Positions 3,858 through 24,746 of a stretch of 29,240 nt of DNA are shown piece by piece. Positions within the stretch are counted from its first letter, which is position 1. Each line of letters opens with the position of its first letter. Both the position numbers and the translations under genes were made by a program. The stretch is taken from the UHGV virus genome UHGV-0275034; one strand, 5' to 3'. The stretch is from a virus. The notes below the pieces were generated by a model. That model did not search any database. It was not told the origin of the DNA and saw nothing but the letters and a program-made list of their open reading frames with translations.

Positions 3858-4378
3858 ACGGTAAAAGATATCCAACACAAAAAGAAATCAATGAATTGTA
3901 TGAATATAATAGCGAAACAGGTTTGTTTATATACAAGAGAAGAGAAAGTGTAAGAGAGTGCTGGAATTCAACATATGCCGGTAAGATTGCTGGTTCTATA
4001 GATGAAAAAGGATACGTTCGTATATCTGTAAATAAAAAAGTTTGTCGAGCTCATAGAATCGCATGGATATCCTTTTATGGAAGTGAACCTGATGGGGAAA
4101 TTGACCACATAAATGGAGTTAAAAGCGATAACAGAATATGCAATTTGCGCGTTGTAGATGATAAACAGAACTCAAGGAACAGAAAAAAGCCTATTAATAA
4201 TCGCTCTGGAGTAATGGGGGTTGCCTACTATAAGAAGAATAAAAAGTGGGGCGCATATATAAACAGTGATAATAAAAAGATATTTCTTGGATTATACGAT
4301 GACATATCTCTAGCCGTTAATGCCAGAAAATTGGCGGAATCACGATTGGGGTATCACCATAATCATGGGAGAGGATAA
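3854..4378 (+). CDS. HNH homing endonuclease with AP2-type DNA-binding domain
   Basis: HNH motif region (IDHINGVKSDNRICNLR ... NSRN) followed by an AP2-like segment (SGVMGVAYYKKNKKWGAYI); gene is markedly AT-rich relative to its neighbours. Confidence 0.75.
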   Translation: MNGKRYPTQKEINELYEYNSETGLFIYKRRESVRECWNSTYAGKIAGSIDEKGYVRISVNKKVCRAHRIAWISFYGSEPDGEIDHINGVKSDNRICNLRVVDDKQNSRNRKKPINNRSGVMGVAYYKKNKKWGAYINSDNKKIFLGLYDDISLAVNARKLAESRLGYHHNHGRG

Positions 4379-4741
4379 ATGGCAGAATACAGATTCACAC
4401 TTCCGTACCCACCGTCGCTGAACACCTACTGGCGAAGACGGGGAAGCCAATACTACATCAGCGATAAAGGCCAGAAATACCGAAAAGACGTTCAGCAAAT
4501 CATCCGCCAACTTAAGTTAGACATTTTCACCAAATCACGACTCCGCATCAAAGTCATCGCAGACGTTCCAGACTCCCGCCGCCGCGACCTCGACAACATC
4601 CTGAAAGGTTTACTCGACTCCCTTATCCACGCCGGATTTGCGGAAGACGACGAGCAATTCGATGACATTCGCGTAATTCGTGGTGTGAAAGTACCAGGTG
4701 GAAGGCTTGGAATAAAAATCACCGAACTGGAGAACGCATGA
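4379..4741 (+). CDS. rusA: RusA Holliday junction resolvase
   Basis: 120-aa product with the RusA pattern (LPYPPSLNTYW ... RRRDLDN ... GGRL) as I recall it from E. coli RusA. Confidence 0.85.
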   Translation: MAEYRFTLPYPPSLNTYWRRRGSQYYISDKGQKYRKDVQQIIRQLKLDIFTKSRLRIKVIADVPDSRRRDLDNILKGLLDSLIHAGFAEDDEQFDDIRVIRGVKVPGGRLGIKITELENA

Positions 4742-6285: not shown

Positions 6286-6609
6286 ATGAAGATGCCAGAA
6301 AAACATGACCTGTTAGCCGCCATTCTCGCGGCAAAGGAACAAGGCATCGGGGCAATCCTTGCGTTTGCAATGGCGTACCTTCGCGGCAGATATAATGGCG
6401 GTGCGTTTACAAAAACAGTAATCGACGCAACGATGTGCGCCATTATCGCCTGGTTCATTCGTGACCTTCTCGACTTCGCCGGACTAAGTAGCAATCTCGC
6501 TTATATAACGAGCGTGTTCATCGGCTACATCGGTACTGACTCGATTGGTTCGCTTATCAAACGCTTCGCTGCTAAAAAAGCCGGAGTAGAAGATGGTGGA
6601 AATCAATAA
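6286..6609 (+). CDS. S: Holin, lambda S type (dual start M1-K2-M3 giving antiholin S107 and holin S105)
   Basis: 107-aa product that matches lambda S as I remember it, including the MKM dual-start motif; the upstream sdi region also looks lambda-like. Confidence 0.9.
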
Positions 6610-7069
6610 TCAACGTAAGGCGTTCCTCGATATGCTGGCGTGGTCAGAGGGAACTGATAACGGACGTCAGAAAACCAGAAATCATGGTTATGACGTCATT
6701 GTTGGCGGAGAGCTATTCACTGATTACTCCGATCACCCTCGCAAACTTGTCACGCTAAACCCAAAACTCAAATCAACAGCAGCCGGACGTTACCAGCTTC
6801 TTTCCCGTTGGTGGGATGCCTACCGCAAGCAGCTTGGACTGAAAGACTTCTCTCCGAAAAGCCAGGACGCTGTGGCATTGCAGCAGATTAAAGAGCGTGG
6901 TGCTTTACCGATGATTGACCGCGGTGATATTCGTCAGGCAATCGACCGTTGCAGTAATATCTGGGCTTCACTGCCGGGCGCTGGTTATGGTCAGTTCGAG
7001 CATAAGGCTGACAGCCTGATTGCAAAATTCAAAGAGGCTGGCGGAACGGTCAGAGAGATTGAGGTATGA
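6593..7069 (+). CDS. R: Endolysin, lambda R type (lytic transglycosylase)
   Basis: 158-aa product matching my recollection of lambda R; start overlaps the end of S. Confidence 0.9.
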
Positions 7070-7503
7070 GCAGAGTCACCGCGATTATCTCCGCTCTGGT
7101 TATCTGCATCATCGTCTGCCTGTCATGGGCTGTTAATCATTACCGTGATAATGCCATCGCCTACAAAGAGCAGCGCGATAAAGCCAGGTACATCATCGCT
7201 GACATGCAGAAGCGTCAACGTGATGTAGCAGAACTTGACGCCAGATACACAAAGGAGCTTGCTGATGCTAATGCGACTATCGAAAGTCTCCGTGCTGATG
7301 TTTCTGCTGGTCGTAAGCGCCTGCAAGTCGCCGCCACCTGTGCAAAGTCAACGACCGGAGCCAGCAGCATGGGCGATGGAGAAAGTCCAAGACTTACAGC
7401 AGATGCTGAACTCAATTATTACCGTCTCCGAAGTGGAATCGACAAGATAACCGCGCAGGTTAACTACCTGCAGGAATACATCAGGACGCAATGCCTTCGA
7501 TGA
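7066..7503 (+). CDS. Rz: Rz i-spanin
   Basis: N-terminal TM segment ([31 protein letters not shown]) matches lambda Rz; C-terminal part diverges; contains an embedded +1-frame lipoprotein ORF. Confidence 0.85.
7265..7450 (+). CDS. Rz1: Rz1 o-spanin (outer-membrane lipoprotein embedded in Rz)
   Basis: +1-frame ORF wholly inside Rz; signal peptide and lipobox ([20 protein letters not shown]) followed by a Pro-rich segment; the start may be ATG 7265 or 7271. Confidence 0.7.
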
Positions 7504-18402: not shown

Positions 18403-19875
18403 TTGGCTACATGGCAACAGGCTGGTAATTCAGGCGCGCTTCTTGCCGGGTTAGGCGGCATGAACTCCAACGCTCCAAGAGCAAGTGATGCAGACGCCAC
18501 GCTTGCATACATTCGACAGAATAACGAGATGGAGCGTTCAGGACGTAATAACGTTGGCTTGCAGGCTTTGCAGGGCATTTCATCTGTCATGGATATGTAT
18601 AAGCAGATGGATCAGCAGAAGCGACAGCAAGAGTTTCAGCAGGCTTATGCTGATGCATATACATCTGGTGACCGCGATGCAATGCGAAAACTGGCATCAC
18701 AGTATCCTGAGCAGTTTGACGCTGTAAGAAACGGCATGAAATTTGTCGATGAAGACCAGCGTTCCACTGTCGGCACACTGGCAGCAAGTGCCAGACTGGC
18801 AGCTTCATCTCCAGAAGCCATGATGTCATGGTTGCAGAACAACTCATCTGAGCTTACTCGTGCCGGAGTAGACCCTCTGGATGTGGCGAAAATGTATCAG
18901 CAAAATCCACAAGGTTTCACAGAGTTTGTTGATCACCTTGGAATGGCTGCTCTTGGTCCGATTGATTACTTCAATGTTCAGGACAAGATGGCTGGTCGTG
19001 AAATTGACCGAGGAAGGCTGGCAGAGACAATCCGCAGCAATCAGGCTGGAGAGGCGCTTCAGGCGAGAGGGCAGGATATTAGCCGAGCAAATGCGTTAAC
19101 GTCAGCATATGCACCAACAGCTGCAATGCAGAATTATAATCAGTACGCGCAAATGTTAAAGGCGGATCCCGATGGTGCAGCGGCATTTGCGGCAGCGGCG
19201 GGAATTAATCCCAATGCTAAGAAATTACTTAAGGTTGAAACCAATCCTGATGGCTCGGTAACTAAGTATTACACCGATGGCAGCGAGGAAGCCGGAAAAC
19301 TAAACCAACCTATATCTGGTGATGGCATTAAACCAATTAGCTTGCCACAAGCGCAAAGCATCATAGATAAGGCTAATGAGGGTTCCAAGAAGGCGGCAGG
19401 ATTTGCTTTGCGATTAAAAGATTCAATGGACTCAATGAATCAGCTTAGTAAAAGCATTGACCCTAAGCGAGTTGCATTAATAAATCGCTCTCTTGGTGAT
19501 GGGACTATTGCAAATTTAAGCCTATCACCAGCGGAGCAGCAATATATGGTAAATGCGAGAGACGCCTTGTATGCAATTTTGCGCCCAGAAACAGGTGCAG
19601 CAATTACTCTGCCAGAGATGCAGGAGTATTCCAAAATGTACCTGCCTCAGCCCGGTGATTCCAAGGCTGCTACTGAAACAAAAATGCGAAAAATGCAGGG
19701 CCAATATAACTCATTACGTGGTCAGTCTGGTCGCGTTTATGATGCTTTGGTGGTTTCAAGTGCTGCAAATAGTCAACAACAGAGCAATAGCCAACAACCG
19801 GCAAATACCCAACAGCAGCAGAGTCAATCCGGATCATATACCTCAAAATCAGGCATTCAATTTACGGTGGAATGA
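18403..19875 (+). CDS. Ejection protein, P22 gp20 homologue
   Basis: 490-aa product in the gp7-gp20-gp16 order; the start may be an alternative codon a few nt upstream, closer to GGAGGTG at 18381. Confidence 0.7.
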
Positions 19876-21719
19876 TGAAAGTAACTGCAAACGGTAAGAC
19901 ATTTACCTTCCCTGATGGTACGAGCACGGAAGATATTGGCACCGCCATTGATGAGTATTTTGCTGGTCAGGCTGTTCAGCAACAAACAGTTAATCAGGCC
20001 AATAATGAACCAGCACGTGAAGAACCATCATTGATGCAACAAGCTGGCGATTGGCTCACAGGTGCTCAAAGTGCAGGGCAAATTGCAGAACAGGCTGGTC
20101 GTGGTCTGGTAAACATACCATTTGACGTATTGCAGGGTGGCGCAAGTCTGATTAATGCAATCAGCCAGGGGCTTGGTGGCCCCAAGGTTTTGGATGATGT
20201 TTATCGCCCTGTCGATCGACCGACAGACCCTTATGCGCAAGCTGGAGAAACAATTGGCGGGTATTTAGTTCCAGGAGTTGGAACGGCAGGAAGCATGGCT
20301 ATTGGATCACTGGCAGAAGCCGCAAACCAGAAAGGTGATTTCGCGCAAAATGCAGCCATAAATGCCGGAGTTAACCTTGCCGCTCAGGGTGTTCTTTCCG
20401 CAGCAGCAAAGGGAATAGGGCGTGGAATAACGGCTATAAAAGGCGATATCGCGCCAGAAGTAGCGAAAAAAATTGCCACCTCAGAATCAATGGGTGTGAC
20501 GCCAATGACATCTGATGTCATCCCACCGAAAAATGCTTTCACTCGTGGCCTTACTCAGGATGCCGAGGGGGCTTTGCTCGGGACAGGCTCAAAGCGAGCT
20601 GAGCAATATGCAACGCGTAGTAAGCTGGTAAGTAATTATTTTGACCGTTTTGGTGAGTACAACCCTGATGATGTGGTGAAATCTCTGACCACCACGTTAA
20701 GGGGGCGGAAGGATGCCGCTGGCGCTGTTATCAATGACGTCACCAATAAAATGGGTAATGCCTCAGTTGATACCACAAATACCATGAATGCTCTGAATAC
20801 AGCGATCGCAAGACAGGAACGGCTTGGGACATCTGCCAATCAAAGCCTGCTTACATCCTTGCGTAACCTACGTGAAGAATTAGCAAACCCTGCAACTGAT
20901 TTGGATGTTACGTTTGATCTCTTGCGTCAGCACAGAACAGCATTTAGATCTAATGTTCAGGGAGATGCTATGGTCTTCCCCAACCAGGCAAAAGCAGCTA
21001 CCAATATGGTAGAGAATGCAATGTCAAAAGACCTTCGTAACGCAGTTGCTAAAAACCTCGGTGCATCAGACGCAGCAAAATACCTTAAAGCAAATTCCGA
21101 TTATGCAAACGTTTATAATAAGGTGCTTAATAAAAACATTGCTAACAAGCTCAACAAGGCAAGCAGTGAAGCCAGTCCTGAACTTATAAATACCGTTGTA
21201 TTAAGCAGAAAACCATCTGACGTGAAACGAATCTGGAGCGCATTGGATGATAAAGGGAAAGATGCTATGCGTGCAGCTTACGTCAGCAAAATAGCGGAAA
21301 AATCCGGTGACTCTCCAGCCAAGTTCATCACTGAAGTTAATAAGCTGAAATCTCAGTCAGGCGGTGAAATTTACAACACTATTTTTTCTGGAAAGCACAT
21401 GAAAGAGCTTGATGCTCTTCATGAAGTTCTACAGCAAACAGCAAGGTCAGACACCGCAAATGTAGTAACTCAGACGGGGCAATCGCAAGCCAACAGGATA
21501 AGGACGATTGGCGCAACTGCGACTCTTGGCGTATCAATGGGGCTTGAGGCTGGTTTCGGTGCAATGATGCGCTTGTATGAGTCCAAAGCAGCAAGGAATG
21601 CTCTCTTACGTTTGGCAAACACCAAAGCAGGAACGCCAGCCTATGAAAGAGCGCTAAATAATGCTGCAAATGCGATACGCCCTATACTTTCAAGCCAAAT
21701 TACAGCAGAACAGCAATAA
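19872..21719 (+). CDS. Ejection protein, P22 gp16 homologue
   Basis: 615-aa product, close to the roughly 609 aa I recall for P22 gp16; start overlaps the gp20 stop (ATGA). Confidence 0.75.
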
Positions 21720-21733
21720 AAGATAAGATATAA

Positions 21734-22219
21734 CTACCTGATATTACTGCTACTGTTGCATGTTACCGTGTTTCCAAATCCTGAATTGCAGTTTGTATAT
21801 GTGTCAACGCGTGTTGGGTAAGGTTGAGTTATAACAGGCTGGCGCGCTTTTTGCTCGATCGCTTGCATTGTGTTTACAGCCTGATAATTCAATAAAGCCT
21901 GCTGGAATGCTTGGCTTTGCGCTATTTGTTGGGCTTGTTCTTGGCTTTGTAATTGAACATAAAGATTCTGAAGTTCAAGTCTTGCCTGTGTGTCACTTAT
22001 CTTGCCTTCATCGACACCTTGCCCGAGCATCTTCGCAGCAAGGACATACAGCTTAGGTGTTGGTGCTGATGCCATGCGAGAGTCGTTCTTCAAGCTGGCA
22101 TCAAGGCAATTAGCCATATCGCTAAGCTTTGGATAGCGTTGCTCGCAACTTGCCTGATAGTCGCTTACTTTTGCGCACCCAGCCAGCAGAAGCGGGATAA
22201 TTAACAGTGATTTTTTCAT
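21734..22219 (-). CDS. Predicted lipoprotein (162 aa) with Gln-rich central region
   Basis: Start set at the internal ATG (complement of 22217..22219), which has AGGAGA about 10 nt upstream; signal peptide plus lipobox MKKSLLIIPLLLAGC; convergent with gp16. Confidence 0.7.
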   Translation of the reverse strand: MKKSLLIIPLLLAGCAKVSDYQASCEQRYPKLSDMANCLDASLKNDSRMASAPTPKLYVLAAKMLGQGVDEGKISDTQARLELQNLYVQLQSQEQAQQIAQSQAFQQALLNYQAVNTMQAIEQKARQPVITQPYPTRVDTYTNCNSGFGNTVTCNSSSNIR

Positions 22220-22253
22220 ATAATTAACTCTCCTTAGTTTTGCGCAGGATACC

Positions 22254-22619
22254 ATGAAAAAAGTTAACATTGGAAACGTACCAAAGATGCTAGTACCGCT
22301 CTTTGAGAGCGGTACAATTGTGTTTTGTAGAGACTTTCCAGAATGGCAACGCCTGCATCAAAAACTTGGCGTTGACGTGCATGACTCGGACGCCAACGGA
22401 GCGTCTCATACAATGAGTAGCGAGAATGGTGTTTTGCATGTGATAGGCGTGTTCAATGGCAAACTATCTACTATTGCCCATGAGTGCGCTCACATGGCAT
22501 TCGATATCTGCTCAAGGGTCGGTGTTGATGTTGAACCAGGAAGAGCCAACGAGACTTACTGCTACTTAATGAGCAGGCTTGTTGAGTTCTGCGAGCGACA
22601 TATCAAAAAGCCGGAGTGA
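22254..22619 (+). CDS. Small protein (121 aa) carrying an HExxH motif (HECAH)
   Basis: ATG 22254 with AGGA upstream; divergent from the lipoprotein gene with only 34 bp between the two start codons; motif IAHECAHMAF suggests a zinc metallopeptidase-like fold. Confidence 0.55.
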   Translation: MKKVNIGNVPKMLVPLFESGTIVFCRDFPEWQRLHQKLGVDVHDSDANGASHTMSSENGVLHVIGVFNGKLSTIAHECAHMAFDICSRVGVDVEPGRANETYCYLMSRLVEFCERHIKKPE

Positions 22620-22630
22620 TCCGGCTTGAT
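22606..22630 (-). terminator. Hairpin terminator between convergent genes (run of T on the minus strand)
   Basis: 8-bp stem AAGCCGGA/TCCGGCTT with loop GTGA; the + strand stop codon lies in the loop; TTTTT follows on the minus strand. Confidence 0.6.
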
Positions 22631-22632
22631 TA

Positions 22633-22812
22633 TTACTTTTTGCTGTCTGGAGTTCGCTTATCTAATACCCAGCCATGACCTGGCTTTGTTGTTGGTGGAA
22701 GCCTTTCGTTGTCCTTGACGGTGGCAAAATTGTCTTTCTTACCGCCGCGCGGGCCAACTTCTTGGTATATTCCGCCGTTTTTTCCTGTGTTTTCACCTGG
22801 TTTTTTCGCCAT
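22633..22812 (-). CDS. Small Lys/Gly-rich hydrophilic protein (59 aa)
   Basis: Start at the internal ATG (MAKKPGENTGKNGG...) with GAGGT upstream; followed by a terminator hairpin; no family assigned. Confidence 0.5.
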   Translation of the reverse strand: MAKKPGENTGKNGGIYQEVGPRGGKKDNFATVKDNERLPPTTKPGHGWVLDKRTPDSKK

Positions 22813-22902
22813 GATATACCTCAACATACACCCGTTATTGGGCGATTAAATATTGATCTCATTTTATAAGTAGTCAATATGGCCCAGGTAAATGCAAAAA
22901 TT

Positions 22903-22926
22903 AACCCACCGTCAGGTGGGTTTTTT
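22903..22926. terminator. Bidirectional hairpin terminator overlapping the mnt stop codon
   Basis: Stem AACCCACC/GGTGGGTT with loop GTCA, flanked by AAAAATT on one side and TTTTTTG on the other. Confidence 0.6.
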
Positions 22927-23163
22927 GTACAAATCCTTCAGCGTATCAAACACCATCTTCTTAACAAGTTCGGACTGCTCATCAGCGATGCGTTCCGCAT
23001 CGTCTCGATAGCCTGAAATTTTGGATGGCTTTGATACAGCATCAGTAACTATCTGAACTAATTCTGAATTAAGAGAGCGGCCATTGGATTTGGCTCGCTG
23101 TTTTAGTTTTTCCTTTAATTCGTAAGGTAGCCGCAGATTAAATTGCGGGTCATCTCTTCCCAT
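22912..23163 (-). CDS. mnt: Mnt repressor (ribbon-helix-helix, immI region)
   Basis: 83-aa product that matches P22 Mnt as I recall it, especially the C-terminal GYRDDAERIADEQSELVKKMVFDTLKDLYKK. Confidence 0.85.
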   Translation of the reverse strand: MGRDDPQFNLRLPYELKEKLKQRAKSNGRSLNSELVQIVTDAVSKPSKISGYRDDAERIADEQSELVKKMVFDTLKDLYKKPT

Positions 23164-23226
23164 TCTTGATGCCTCGCTTTTGTGAGTGGATCGGCATCTT
23201 ATTATCTGCTGGTTGCATCCTCAATA

Positions 23227-23241
23227 AGACCACAGTGGTCT
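23227..23241. promoter_or_regulatory. Candidate Mnt operator: perfect 15-bp palindrome AGACCACAGTGGTCT
   Basis: Perfect inverted repeat in the mnt-tailspike intergenic region; its CCAC-N-GTGG core resembles the P22 mnt operator as I recall it. Confidence 0.55.
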
Positions 23242-23309
23242 CTTTGTTTGATTAATAATGCATCACTGTGGCAATGCTGCGGCGATTCCTTGTATCTGGA
23301 GCAAATTAA

Positions 23310-24746
23310 ATGACAGACATTACAGCCAATGTTGTAGTCAGCATGCCTTCGCAACTCTTCACTATGGCTCGTTCTTTTAAAGCCGTAGCTAATGGAAAGA
23401 TTTATATCGGTAAAATTGACACTGACCCAGTAAATCCTGAAAACCAGATTCAGGTTTATGTAGAGAACGAAGACGGCTCTCATGTTCCCGTTTCGCAACC
23501 AATCATCATTAACGCCGCTGGTTACCCTGTATATAACGGACAGATTGCCAAATTCGTAACTGAGCAAGGCCATTCTATGGCTGTTTATGATGCGTATGGT
23601 GCACAGCAGTTCAAATTCCCAAATGTGCTGAAGTATGACCCGGATCAGTTAAGAGTAGTTTTGACTGGACAGTCTGGTGATGGACTTAAGAATTTTTATG
23701 CTGGCTCAGGATGGACTGGTTCAGATGCAGCTGGTGACAATATTTATAACAATGAAACTATCATATATAAAAATGCTACACGACAGAGATTCTCCATACC
23801 AGAAACACCAATTCCAGATCCCATTATTTGGCTGGAAAAAATTAGTTCTGCAACTAGGGATGACGGCATCAAACGATGGGATCAGGGGGTAATTTATAAC
23901 TCTTTGCGCAAGGTGTCAGGAAGTGCATATACATGCACAACTACAAGTGTTGCTAAGCATGAGGGAGGGAATGGGCATTCAATTGGTCACCACATGCGTG
24001 GAGAATCAAGAAATCCGCAAGCCGAAACATGGGGGGGGTGGTCATATGGTGCAGTATTAGGAGATGCAGTGCAGAATGGAGCGATTAGCACTATTGCACA
24101 TGAATTTAATCTGAATAATCGAGGTCCCGATAAAGGATGGATGGAGAATGCACTGCAAGGATCTGTAAGAGGGTTGGTATGTGTAACTCAGGATAAAAGC
24201 AATCCAGTAACACAGATGATTACCATCGGAAGAGGGAGTGAAGCTCCAAATGGTTATATCTGGACAGGAATGTTGTTTAGAGGTAATTCTATTTCCACTC
24301 CAACAGAGGAACTAACCGAGGTAGGTAATGGCGAATACATCAGACTTGAGGGATCTCTATCATCTGGAGCTGCAAACGGCATTAGATTTAGAACAAATTA
24401 TTTTAGGAGTGGAATTTCATTTTCTGAAGCTAGATTTTCAAACAACTGCGCAATTTTGATGGGCGACAATCAACGAATTACGGTAGGAACGGGCCCGGCA
24501 AATACAACACATTTGAGTTTCAACAGGGCTGAGAACTGGGCTAACTTCAACAACTTAAGAATACGACTTAATGGCAATCAAGTTATTTCAGAGAGGAGGA
24601 CGGGATGGGGATCGCCAACCGGCACCGTATCCCGAGCAGCATTTAACTCTGGAACAATAACTCACGAAGATTTAGCAAAGGTAGTTGCAGCATTAATTCA
24701 GGACTTACATGCTTCAACCGGGCATGGATTAATTGGTTTAACTTAA
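23310..24746 (+). CDS. Tailspike / receptor-binding protein (P22 gp9-like N-terminal head-binding domain, divergent short distal domain)
   Basis: First roughly 115 aa closely parallel the P22 gp9 N-terminus ([11 protein letters not shown] ... [13 protein letters not shown][13 protein letters not shown] ... LKYDPDQ); the remainder is unrelated and AT-richer; total 478 aa. Confidence 0.8.

What the first reader, a model, noticed from the sequence alone, without database searches (positions are those of the whole stretch)
21734..22812. Opposite-strand accessory island between the ejection-protein genes and mnt: lipoprotein, small HExxH protein and small Lys/Gly-rich protein
In P22-like phages the gap between gene 16 and the tailspike holds superinfection-exclusion and immI genes, and is a likely hotspot for cargo. 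Here it carries three genes with their own hairpin terminators: a 162-aa lipoprotein (lipobox LAGC, Gln-rich middle) convergent with gp16, a divergent 121-aa protein with an HECAH motif whose start is only 34 bp from the lipoprotein start, and a 59-aa Lys/Gly-rich protein on the minus strand. None matches a P22 sieA-region protein that I recognise. The lipoprotein could act at the envelope against superinfecting phage, as Cor and Llp do in other phages; the HExxH protein could be a small metallopeptidase or a regulator.
Basis: partly seen in the sequence, partly recalled or inferred. Interest (0 to 1): 0.75.

Follow-up and report, generated by a model that had tools for sequence, protein, structure and literature searches.

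The report
Lipoprotein gene in P22 sieA slot
In this P22-like E. coli prophage, an uncharacterised outer-membrane lipoprotein gene sits exactly where phage P22 carries its superinfection-exclusion gene sieA; the two genes beside it are ordinary conserved P22/HK620 genes of unknown function, not new cargo.

Summary
The three ORFs exist at the stated coordinates and all are under purifying selection. They are not one novel island.

- **The 121-aa HExxH gene and the 59-aa gene.** These are HK620 hkcC and P22 ORF59a. P22 itself carries the block at 97% DNA identity. They form a conserved convergent pair that also occurs in siphovirus-type prophages.
- **HkcC.** It belongs to a phage-wide family (phrog_1365) with an invariant gluzincin signature (H76, E77, H80, E100) and a zincin-like predicted fold. 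It lies on the late-gene strand.
- **ORF59a.** It is a YjzC-family protein with its own promoter-like site and a shared bidirectional hairpin.
- **The lipoprotein.** It is 161 aa (not 162), has lipobox LAGC with Ala at +2, and falls in phrog_6067. It is the only variable part.
- **Its position.** It replaces sieA (P22) and hkcB (HK620) precisely from the shared ribosome-binding site, downstream of the conserved putative PsieA region.
- **The slot.** In 80 loci with near-identical hkcC it holds 13 unrelated genes, 12 of them with a signal peptide or membrane segment. The lipoprotein is the commonest (18 loci).
- **Distribution.** In E. coli, Salmonella, Proteus, Yersinia and Morganella it always abuts the gp16 ejection-protein gene.

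A role in superinfection exclusion at the envelope is a reasonable inference but is untested. There is no PADLOC, Pfam or solved-structure match.

The parts
19872..21719 (+). gp16 ejection (DNA transfer) protein gene; context. It is the last late-operon gene before the slot.
   Evidence: ORF of 615 aa. Annotated 'DNA transfer protein' in the identical E. coli region. Its N-terminus is collinear with P22 gp16.
21734..22219 (-). 161-aa predicted outer-membrane lipoprotein (phrog_6067), occupying the sieA/hkcB slot.
   Evidence: - Family: phrog_6067, E 2.9e-109.
- Lipobox: strict in 27/27 homologues, with +2 Ala or Val and never Asp.
- Invariant residues: C15, C25, C38, C154. C144 lies in a C-terminal stretch that aligns poorly between the two tail types.
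- Position: always next to gp16.
- Selection: pN well below pS.
22230..22235 (-). Shine-Dalgarno sequence AAGGAG of the slot gene. This is the left edge of the sequence shared with P22 and HK620.
   Evidence: Alignment A3: window, P22 and HK620 are near-identical from CTCCTTAG rightwards and unrelated to the left of it.
22226..23010 (.). Block 97.3% identical to phage P22 DNA. It holds the putative PsieA region, hkcC, ORF59a and the 3' part of mnt.
   Evidence: Megablast against phages, hits H28-H30. P22 annotation. P22 ORFs.
22254..22619 (+). hkcC: 121-aa stand-alone zincin-like protein (phrog_1365) on the late-gene strand.
   Evidence: - Identity: HK620 hkcC is at the same place.
- Family size: 552 cluster representatives at E<=1e-3.
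- Invariant residues in 46 diverse members: G49, H76, E77, H80, E100.
- Model: AF2 pLDDT 83.5 with beta-beta-alpha-beta-beta-alpha-alpha topology.
- Fold matches: BFVD hits include proteins named 'SprT-like' and 'Metalloprotease'.
22293..22315 (.). 10-bp-stem inverted repeat inside the 5' end of hkcC. It lies 74-96 nt upstream of the lipoprotein start, partly overlapping the 85-bp region that carries putative PsieA in P22.
   Evidence: Terminator-like hit on the + strand. The P22 and HK620 copies have one stem mismatch. Function not tested.
22608..22627 (.). Bidirectional hairpin shared by the convergent hkcC and ORF59a genes.
   Evidence: Found on both strands by the scan. The same element is annotated in HK620 as 'bidirectional terminator; tORF59A'.
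22633..22812 (-). ORF59a: 59-aa basic, Lys/Gly/Pro-rich protein of the YjzC family (phrog_3202).
   Evidence: - Annotation: ORF59a in P22.
- Family: phrog_3202, E 7e-31. The Pfam YjzC hit is below cutoff. A chain of homologues reaches proteins annotated PF14168, and the motif is shared.
- Linkage: present just downstream of hkcC on the opposite strand in 67 of 80 loci.
22849..22877 (-). Sigma-70-like promoter upstream of ORF59a (TTGACT, 17-nt spacer, AATATT).
   Evidence: The only promoter-like site the scan found in 21500-23400, 9 of 12 matches. A consensus match only.
22903..22922 (.). Hairpin terminator at the end of mnt. It separates mnt from ORF59a.
   Evidence: Scan hit on both strands.
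22912..23163 (-). mnt (Arc/Mnt-family repressor); right-hand context.
   Evidence: Pfam Arc E 2.8e-22 and Repressor_Mnt E 2.2e-18.

Best explanation
The interval has two independent parts.

**Part 1: the lipoprotein gene (21734-22219, minus strand)**
- It is one allele of a hot-swappable slot. That slot holds sieA in P22 and hkcB in HK620.
- The cassette is joined exactly at the ribosome-binding site. It therefore lies downstream of the conserved region that carries the putative sieA promoter in P22, and it is most likely expressed from the prophage.
- The product is exported, lipidated at Cys15 and, having Ala at +2, sorted to the inner face of the outer membrane.
- The mature protein has three regions: a helical domain with a probable Cys25-Cys38 disulfide, a Gln-rich helix, and a Pro-rich linker ending in a small disulfide-closed loop (Cys144-Cys154).
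- My preferred mechanism, which is inferred, is superinfection exclusion at the outer membrane or periplasm. The protein would hinder the gp7/gp20/gp16 ejection conduit of incoming P22-like phages, or an outer-membrane protein they need. This would be the outer-membrane counterpart of inner-membrane SieA.

**Part 2: hkcC (plus strand) and ORF59a (minus strand)**
- They form a conserved convergent two-gene module, also present in P22 and HK620.
- HkcC is a small zincin-type metallohydrolase. It lies on the late-gene strand with no recognisable promoter of its own, so it is probably made during lytic growth.
- ORF59a is a YjzC-family small basic protein with its own promoter-like site and terminator, a classic moron layout. 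It is probably also made in the lysogen.
- The targets of both proteins are unknown.
For: **Shown**
- The junction is exact. Sequence to the right of the RBS is near-identical in window, P22 and HK620. To the left are three unrelated genes.
- Leavitt et al. 2024 (PMC10883804) inserted P22 sieA with 85 bp upstream, containing putative PsieA, and 22 bp downstream, and this excluded P22. About 78 of those 85 bp are conserved here.
- In 80 loci with 98-100% identical HkcC, the slot holds 13 unrelated genes. The counts include lipoprotein 18 and SieA 14. Twelve of the 13 have a signal peptide or membrane segment.
- The lipoprotein always abuts gp16. It is the only gene between gp16 and the tailspike gene in Yersinia and Morganella prophages. 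In Proteus phage Brookers it follows mnt on the same strand, 18 bp away.
- The lipobox is strict in 27/27 homologues and +2 is never Asp. The cysteines are conserved. pN is well below pS.
- The lipoprotein gene is present in 186 of 5426 complete E. coli genomes.
- For hkcC: invariant H76, E77, H80 and E100; a confident zincin-like model; BFVD fold matches that include proteins named SprT-like and Metalloprotease.
- The hkcC/YjzC pair recurs in siphovirus-type prophages and in Xenorhabdus, Proteus and a Pasteurellaceae genome.

**Inferred**
- Expression from the prophage, the outer-membrane location, and any exclusion activity.
Against: - There is no functional evidence for exclusion.
- No homology to SieA was found. 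Similarity to Cor is limited to the signal peptide, E 0.09.
- There is no PADLOC hit.
- I could not find a convincing sigma-70 consensus in the 200 nt upstream of the lipoprotein gene, so the promoter assignment rests on P22 literature.
- Prophage outer-membrane lipoproteins can serve the host instead of blocking phages, as lambda Bor does.
- HkcC has no Pfam or PDB relative at significant scores.
Confidence: 0.5

Rival explanations
1. The lipoprotein is a lysogenic-conversion factor that benefits the host in some way other than blocking phages. Examples would be serum resistance, envelope stability or adhesion, as with lambda Bor.
For: - It is a prophage gene for an outer-membrane lipoprotein with no similarity to any known exclusion protein.
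- It is frequent in pathogenic lineages such as O26:H11 and O104:H4.
Against: - It is strictly confined to P22-like prophages. It always sits in the sieA position next to the ejection-protein genes, across five genera.
- The only characterised allele of the slot is an exclusion protein.
- The other alleles are also envelope proteins.
Confidence: 0.25
2. The active product is the transcript rather than the protein. A prophage-expressed minus-strand RNA reads into the 3' end of gene 16 and acts as an antisense RNA against superinfecting relatives. STnc6030 of prophage BTP1 was proposed to work this way.
For: - Owen et al. 2020 (PMC7067206) found a highly expressed antisense RNA at the same gp16/tailspike junction in BTP1. 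It gives immunity to BTP1 but not to P22.
- Here no terminator separates the lipoprotein stop from gene 16. The gap is 14 bp.
Against: - The ORF is under strong protein-level constraint. pN is 0.25-0.32 against pS 0.79-0.95, and the lipobox and cysteines are invariant.
- The same lipoprotein is paired with several different gp16 types. An antisense mechanism could not follow such changes.
Confidence: 0.08
3. One reading: the three genes form one newly acquired accessory or defence cassette.
For: - The three genes are adjacent and compact.
- They lie in a known cargo region.
Against: - hkcC and ORF59a are in P22 and HK620 at 97% identity.
- The lipoprotein occurs without them, and they occur with twelve other slot genes.
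- No PADLOC model matches.
Confidence: 0.04
4. HkcC is an ImmA/IrrE-like regulatory protease that cleaves a repressor in the neighbouring immI region or elsewhere. On this reading it is not an effector or processing enzyme.
For: - It has an HExxH motif and sits next to mnt.
- Weak BFVD matches are named 'IrrE protein', with probability 0.41-0.54.
Against: - No Pfam Peptidase_M78 match was found in any of 46 family members.
- Relatives sit in tail-gene clusters, or between lysis and terminase genes, with no adjacent HTH repressor. Fold matches include proteins of phages from other groups.
- hkcC lies on the late strand.
Confidence: 0.1

Closest known systems
P22 SieA (inner-membrane superinfection-exclusion protein; Leavitt et al. 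2024, PMC10883804)
   Same: - The genomic slot, orientation, upstream region and ribosome-binding site are identical.
- Both are envelope-targeted proteins of about 160 aa encoded by P22-like prophages.
- The two are mutually exclusive in the 80 loci surveyed.
   Different: - There is no sequence similarity.
- SieA has four membrane helices and sits in the inner membrane. This protein has a lipobox, no membrane helix, and a predicted outer-membrane anchor.
- SieA's function has been demonstrated. This protein's has not.
Cor (phi80/N15/HK022) and Llp (T5): outer-membrane lipoproteins that block superinfection by inactivating FhuA. Also Ltp of TP-J34, which targets the tape-measure protein.
   Same: - All are small phage-encoded lipoproteins.
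- This one carries disulfide-forming cysteines and has a predicted periplasm-facing outer-membrane location.
- The concept of exclusion at the DNA-entry step is shared (general knowledge; Ltp reference is cited).
   Different: - Only the signal peptide resembles Cor (phrog_1119, E 0.09, residues 1-29).
- This protein is twice as long and largely helical.
- It is found only in O-antigen-specific podoviruses, so any target would differ.
Zincin-like metallopeptidase domains of phage 'polyvalent' and ejected proteins, such as the N4 virion RNA polymerase C1 domain (Iyer et al. 2017, PMC5512222; PMC13434306)
   Same: - HExxH lies on one helix, and the third-ligand Glu lies on the next.
- A small beta-sheet and a backing helix precede them.
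- The genes are encoded among late genes, beside genes for proteins delivered into the host.
   Different: - HkcC is a 121-aa stand-alone protein.
- The specific similarity is weak: hmmsearch E 0.14-0.22 and hhalign probability 80.6%. In a shuffle control that kept only the 11-residue motif, 3 of 60 shuffles reached the real score.
YjzC family (Pfam PF14168), small proteins of unknown function
   Same: ORF59a shares the KPG...GxYxExGPRGG...LPPT motif and the length of about 60 aa.
   Different: - The direct Pfam score (19.4) is below the gathering cutoff (25).
- The phage branch is usually paired convergently with hkcC.

Membership tests
Bacterial lipoprotein (signal peptidase II substrate), outer-membrane sorted | N-terminal basic region, hydrophobic core and lipobox [LVI][ASTVI][GAS]C. 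| tested here: met
   The sequence is MKKSLLIIPLLLAGC. The strict lipobox is present in 27/27 family members.
Bacterial lipoprotein (signal peptidase II substrate), outer-membrane sorted | No Asp at position +2 (the Lol-avoidance signal), which implies outer-membrane sorting. | tested here: met
   Position +2 is Ala in 25 members and Val in 2, and never Asp. The location itself is inferred from the '+2 rule' and was not measured.
SieA family (phrog_7745) | Sequence homology, four membrane helices, and the cytoplasmic FxRYPxEAxxFNK motif. | tested here: not met
   The lipoprotein matches phrog_6067 only. It has no hydrophobic windows beyond the signal peptide. P22 SieA matches phrog_7745.
SieA family (phrog_7745) | Position between gene 16 and gene 9 of a P22-like prophage, on the strand opposite the late genes. 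| tested here: met
Cor/Llp-type exclusion lipoproteins | Sequence homology to Cor (phrog_1119). | tested here: not met
   E 0.092, confined to residues 1-29, the signal peptide.
Cor/Llp-type exclusion lipoproteins | Blocks infection by binding an outer-membrane receptor. | not testable with these tools
   This needs plating, adsorption and K+ efflux assays.
Known anti-phage defence systems (PADLOC-DB 2.0) | A match of any of the proteins to a defence-system model. | tested here: not met
   No family at E<=1 for any of the three proteins or for Mnt.
Gluzincin-type zincin metallopeptidase (HkcC) | HExxH motif plus a downstream Glu as third zinc ligand. | tested here: met
   H76, E77, H80 and E100 are invariant in 46 members that are 23-74% identical to the window protein. 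The His-to-Glu spacing is 20 residues, the same as in thermolysin (spacing from my own knowledge).
Gluzincin-type zincin metallopeptidase (HkcC) | Zincin fold: beta-sheet, backing helix, active-site helix and Glu helix. | tested here: inconclusive
   - For: the AF2 topology is E11-13, E21-25, H28-38, E49-56, E59-66, H71-88, H100-116 at pLDDT 83.5. BFVD matches include a protein named 'SprT-like family protein' (TM 0.72, E 1e-4) and one named 'Metalloprotease'.
Gluzincin-type zincin metallopeptidase (HkcC) | Membership of a curated peptidase family (Pfam or NCBIfam). | tested here: not met
   No Pfam family for any of 46 members. NCBIfam gave only a chance lantibiotic hit.
Gluzincin-type zincin metallopeptidase (HkcC) | Zinc binding and peptidase activity. 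| not testable with these tools
   This requires biochemistry.
YjzC family (PF14168) (ORF59a) | Match to the family profile. | tested here: inconclusive
   The direct hit is E 0.0013 at 19.4 bits, below the cutoff of 25. Even so, homologues found with ORF59a include proteins pre-annotated PF14168 and named 'YjzC family protein' by UniRef. The motif aligns across them.
Moron (autonomous promoter-gene-terminator unit in a phage late region) (ORF59a) | Own promoter, own terminator, and orientation independent of the flanking operon. | tested here: met
   Promoter-like site at 22877-22849 and hairpin at 22627-22608 on the minus strand. These are predicted elements only. Transcription was not measured.

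The most novel reading that the evidence does not exclude
The sieA position of P22-like phages may be a general 'exclusion cassette' site. At least 13 unrelated envelope proteins are plugged onto one shared upstream region and ribosome-binding site. The lipoprotein, its commonest allele in this sample, would be the first outer-membrane lipoprotein shown to block DNA delivery by short-tailed, O-antigen-specific phages. It would act on the ejection-protein conduit from the outer-membrane side.

A second, weaker possibility concerns the other two genes. HkcC and ORF59a may form a functionally coupled pair, for example a late-expressed protease that neutralises a prophage-expressed small protein.
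Probability: 0.3. Interest if true: 0.65.

Novelty: new member of a known kind. Interest (0 to 1): 0.42.

Why it matters
If the lipoprotein excludes superinfecting phages, there would be two unrelated blocks of the P22 ejection conduit to compare. One would act at the outer membrane and one, SieA, at the inner membrane. That would help map how gp7, gp20 and gp16 cross the envelope.

The gene is in about 3% of complete E. coli genomes, including O26:H11 and O104:H4 strains. It could therefore affect the host range of therapeutic or typing phages.

The allelic series at this slot offers a ready list of a dozen untested envelope proteins under one shared upstream region. The finding also corrects the record: hkcC is a conserved gene in P22 itself, but it is left unannotated in some P22 records.

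Tried and rejected
- **Family searches on the three proteins.** Pfam, NCBIfam and PADLOC gave nothing significant except the weak YjzC hit.
- **Profile searches of PDB sequences.** Nothing significant was found.
- **Foldseek against afdb50.** The library was unavailable.
- **HkcC versus the neighbouring PF18894 'PhageMetallopep' protein.** No relationship was found.
- **HkcC versus the N4 vRNAP zincin domain.** hhalign gave 80.6% probability. My shuffle control showed that the 11-residue motif alone reaches that score in 3 of 60 shuffles. I keep this as a lead only.
- **Fusion proteins in the HkcC family.** The extra regions have no Pfam domain.
- **Sigma-70 promoter for the lipoprotein gene.** No consensus match of 8/12 or better lies in the 200 nt upstream.
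- **Rfam.** No RNA family matched in 21400-23500.
- **Base composition.** The cassette does not stand out from its flanks.
- **Literature.** No paper was found on this lipoprotein, on the accession numbers, or on any YjzC function.
- **BTP1 and the small-membrane-protein slot alleles.** BTP1 was not among the hits for two of these alleles.
- **Spanin or lysis role for the lipoprotein.** I rejected this. A separate run of three ORFs at 6286-7503 has the sizes and order of a lysis cassette (ORF list only, not annotated). The only spanin similarity is in the signal peptide.
Full report
**Observation**

The window is the late region of a P22-like (Lederbergvirus-type) prophage. Window 21500-23400 is 100% identical to a chromosomal prophage of E. 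coli EF5-18-41 and 98-99% identical to a dozen other E. coli chromosomes.

- 21734-22219(-): 161 aa, beginning MKKSLLIIPLLLAGC.
- 22254-22619(+): 121 aa, containing HECAH.
- 22633-22812(-): 59 aa, with 10 Lys and 9 Gly.

Each matches a full-length PHROG family of unknown function: phrog_6067, phrog_1365 and phrog_3202. In comparisons with 58-78% identical homologues, non-synonymous differences (pN 0.11-0.32) are far below saturated synonymous differences (pS 0.78-0.95). All three are therefore real protein-coding genes.

Four details in the finding are wrong:
- The lipoprotein is 161 aa, not 162.
- The HExxH gene is on the late-gene strand, not the opposite strand.
- There is one shared bidirectional hairpin (22608-22627) between the HExxH gene and the 59-aa gene. 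No terminator follows the lipoprotein gene, which ends 14 bp from the gp16 stop.
- Two of the three genes are P22 genes.

**Two of the three genes are conserved P22/HK620 genes**

Phage P22 DNA matches window 22226-23010 at 97.3% identity. In P22 this block contains the annotated ORF59a. It also contains an intact ORF that differs from the window's 121-aa protein by one or two residues. That ORF is not annotated in record AB426868. In HK620 the same gene is annotated hkcC, and the hairpin is annotated 'bidirectional terminator; tORF59A'.

**The lipoprotein gene is an allele of the sieA slot**

An alignment of window, P22 and HK620 shows near-identity from the Shine-Dalgarno sequence (window 22230-22235, AAGGAG on the minus strand) rightwards through hkcC. 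Immediately to the left are three unrelated genes: the lipoprotein gene, sieA and hkcB.

Leavitt et al. 2024 (PMC10883804) showed three things:
- sieA inserted with 85 bp upstream, containing the putative PsieA promoter, and 22 bp downstream is enough for exclusion.
- Only 22 of 66 sequenced P22-like phages carry sieA.

About 78 of those 85 bp are conserved in the window and lie inside the 5' end of hkcC.

I fetched 80 IMG/VR loci whose HkcC is 98-100% identical. I then asked what lies between gp16 and hkcC in these loci and in the reference loci (P22, HK620, the E. coli prophage). The slot holds 13 unrelated genes:

| Slot gene | Loci |
|---|---|
| Lipoprotein | 18 |
| SieA | 14 |
| 129-aa protein with a cleavable signal peptide | 11 |
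| 75-aa protein with three hydrophobic segments | 8 |
| HkcB (two variants, 109 and 113 aa) | 7 + 2 |
| Second 109-aa membrane-anchored coiled-coil protein | 6 |
| 62-aa two-segment protein | 4 |
| Rarer alleles (five types) | 10 |

Twelve of the 13 begin with a signal peptide or membrane segment. Only SieA has a known function. The same gp16 type occurs with the lipoprotein, with SieA or with other alleles, so the cassette is exchanged on a fine scale.

**The lipoprotein family**

Ninety cluster representatives were found, all from Enterobacterales (including Morganellaceae) and almost all named 'hypothetical'. The family has these conserved features:
- All 27 aligned members keep a strict lipobox.
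- Position +2 is Ala or Val and never Asp, which by the '+2 rule' predicts outer-membrane sorting.
- Cys25, Cys38 and Cys154 are invariant. Cys144 lies in a C-terminal stretch that aligns poorly between the two tail types.

The C-terminal 30 residues come in two types, exchanged at a conserved ARQP linker. This suggests a modular 'business end'.

The gene occurs in 186 of 5426 complete E. coli genomes, always on the chromosome. It also occurs in phages Gally, vB_EcoP-720R6, VSe13 and MS2 LVA, and in Proteus phage Brookers.

In every context examined it is convergent with the gp16 gene:
- In Yersinia ruckeri and Morganella prophages it is the only gene between gp16 and the tailspike gene.
- In an O26:H11 prophage it sits next to mnt, with no hkcC or ORF59a.
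- In Brookers it follows mnt on the same strand, 18 bp away. This suggests co-expression with a repressor made in lysogens.

**Mechanism for the lipoprotein**

The following steps are inferred, not shown. The gene is expressed in the lysogen from the conserved upstream region. The product is lipidated and anchored in the inner leaflet of the outer membrane. There it interferes with the trans-envelope conduit of incoming P22-like phages, or with an outer-membrane protein they require.

The support is positional and comparative only. I put the exclusion role at about 0.4. I put the overall description of the locus (a slot allele plus a separate conserved module) at about 0.5.

The main rival is a host-benefit conversion factor of the lambda Bor type.

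A second rival is an antisense-RNA mechanism. In prophage BTP1 a highly expressed antisense RNA from this same junction confers immunity (Owen et al. 2020, PMC7067206). Here nothing terminates the lipoprotein transcript before gene 16. However, the strong protein-level constraint, and the pairing with several different gp16 types, argue that the protein is the product that matters.

**HkcC**

A profile search of 1.8 billion cluster representatives finds 552 relatives at E<=1e-3, mostly stand-alone proteins of about 120 aa. All 46 that I sampled fall in phrog_1365, and none has a Pfam domain.

Across these 46 (23-74% identical to the window protein), the invariant positions are G49, H76, E77, H80 and E100. 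That is an HExxH motif with a Glu 20 residues further on, the gluzincin arrangement.

The AlphaFold model is confident (pLDDT 83.5, pTM 0.78). Its order of elements is strand, strand, helix, strand, strand, HExxH helix, Glu helix. This matches the core zincin fold as described by Iyer et al. 2017 (PMC5512222).

Structure searches gave mixed results:
- Foldseek against viral models gave 22 matches at E<=1e-3. All are small phage proteins and most are unnamed. A few are named 'SprT-like' or 'Metalloprotease'. They come from phages of quite different groups, including crAss-like and Erwinia phages.

The best PDB-sequence hits are the HExxH-bearing C1 domain of N4-like virion RNA polymerases (E 0.14-0.22). 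hhalign gives 80.6% probability for this match. In my shuffle control that kept only the 11-residue motif, 3 of 60 shuffles reached the real score. This is a lead, not a result.

hkcC lies on the late-gene strand. It has no conserved space for a promoter of its own, because the sequence upstream is the variable slot. It is therefore probably expressed with the late operon (inferred).

**ORF59a and the pair**

ORF59a homologues extend to proteins annotated PF14168 or 'YjzC family', and they share the motif KPG...GxYxExGPRGG...LPPT. The direct Pfam hit is below the cutoff. No function is known for the family. The gene has the only promoter-like site the scan found in the region (22877-22849) and ends at the shared hairpin. 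This is a typical moron layout.

hkcC and the YjzC gene form a convergent pair in 67 of the 80 loci. The same pair, with the same spacing, also occurs elsewhere:
- In siphovirus-type prophages of Rosenbergiella and Klebsiella oxytoca, between the tail-tube and tape-measure genes.
- In Xenorhabdus, Proteus penneri and a Pasteurellaceae genome, at 46-63% HkcC identity.
- In metagenomic contigs.

The linkage is not absolute:
- More distant hkcC-like genes (about 40% identical) sit between the lysis and terminase genes without a YjzC partner.
- A YjzC gene occurs alone in a Salmonella bongori prophage.

The linkage suggests a functional connection but does not prove one.

**Comparison with known systems and verdict**

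The lipoprotein works, if at all, like SieA or like the Cor/Llp/Ltp lipoproteins. It is a member of none of those families. HkcC meets the motif test for a gluzincin and partly meets the fold test, but it belongs to no curated peptidase family. ORF59a is a YjzC relative.

Nothing here is a known defence system.

It does point to something worth testing. The sieA slot carries a series of interchangeable envelope proteins, and this outer-membrane lipoprotein is its most frequent uncharacterised allele in my sample.

I rate the novelty as a new member of a known kind (a candidate exclusion lipoprotein) and the interest at 0.42.

Noticed in passing
window 22293-22315: A perfect 10-bp-stem inverted repeat (GTACCGCTCT TTG AGAGCGGTAC) lies inside the 5' coding region of hkcC. 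It is terminator-like on the + strand. It sits 74-96 nt upstream of the slot gene, at the edge of the region said to hold PsieA in P22. The P22 and HK620 copies have one stem mismatch. It could be an operator or an attenuator.
   Followed up: partly
window 22912-23310: The immI region is reduced to mnt alone. No arc or ant gene lies between mnt (start 23163) and the tailspike gene (start 23310). DNA identity to P22 stops at 23010, so the operator-reading N-terminal half of Mnt differs from P22 Mnt. Mnt may now control tailspike transcription directly.
   Followed up: no
window 23310-24746; L004 4811-5165: The tailspike ORF is only 478 aa. In the E. coli EF5-18-41 prophage, which is identical over 21500-23400, RefSeq marks the head-binding gene as a truncated pseudogene, with an IS1 remnant nearby. 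The prophage may be defective, and the window differs from that strain further downstream.
   Followed up: no
L001 (P22, AB426868) 2516-2893: An intact hkcC ORF is present in phage P22 but is not annotated in this record. The small membrane-protein slot alleles are likewise unannotated in phages phiv205-1, UPF_BP1 and JEP4 ('none' under the match).
   Followed up: partly
L089 5001-5556; L090 5001-5563; L103-L105 around 4001-4580: The convergent hkcC/YjzC pair also sits in siphovirus-type prophages, just upstream of the tape-measure gene. It also occurs in a Pasteurellaceae prophage among early genes. In both podovirus and siphovirus contexts it neighbours genes for proteins that are ejected with the DNA.
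   Followed up: partly
L092 544-1968; L106 4001-5014: Distant hkcC-like genes are followed by a 212-aa PF18894 'PhageMetallopep' gene, so two HExxH genes lie side by side. hhalign found no relationship between them.
   Followed up: partly
BTP1 prophage (literature, PMC7067206); homologous to window about 21700-23300: The BTP1 antisense RNA STnc6030 gives immunity to BTP1. It maps to this same gp16/tailspike junction and was called non-coding because it holds no ORF above 60 aa. Several slot alleles found here are membrane proteins of 62-75 aa, so a small protein product in BTP1 may deserve a second look. BTP1 was not among the hits for two such alleles.
   Followed up: partly
L098/L099 5878-7727: The lone YjzC homologue in a Salmonella bongori prophage lies about 1.7 kb from a GmrSD_N gene and a HEPN (RiboL-PSP/MAE_28990) gene. 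That looks like a defence-gene cluster.
   Followed up: no
A1 alignment columns about 135-171 (lipoprotein residues about 126-161): The lipoprotein family has two alternative C-terminal tails, exchanged at a conserved ARQP linker. Nearly identical N-terminal domains carry either tail (for example P0008 versus P0038, both from Citrobacter). This points to recombination within the gene.
   Followed up: partly
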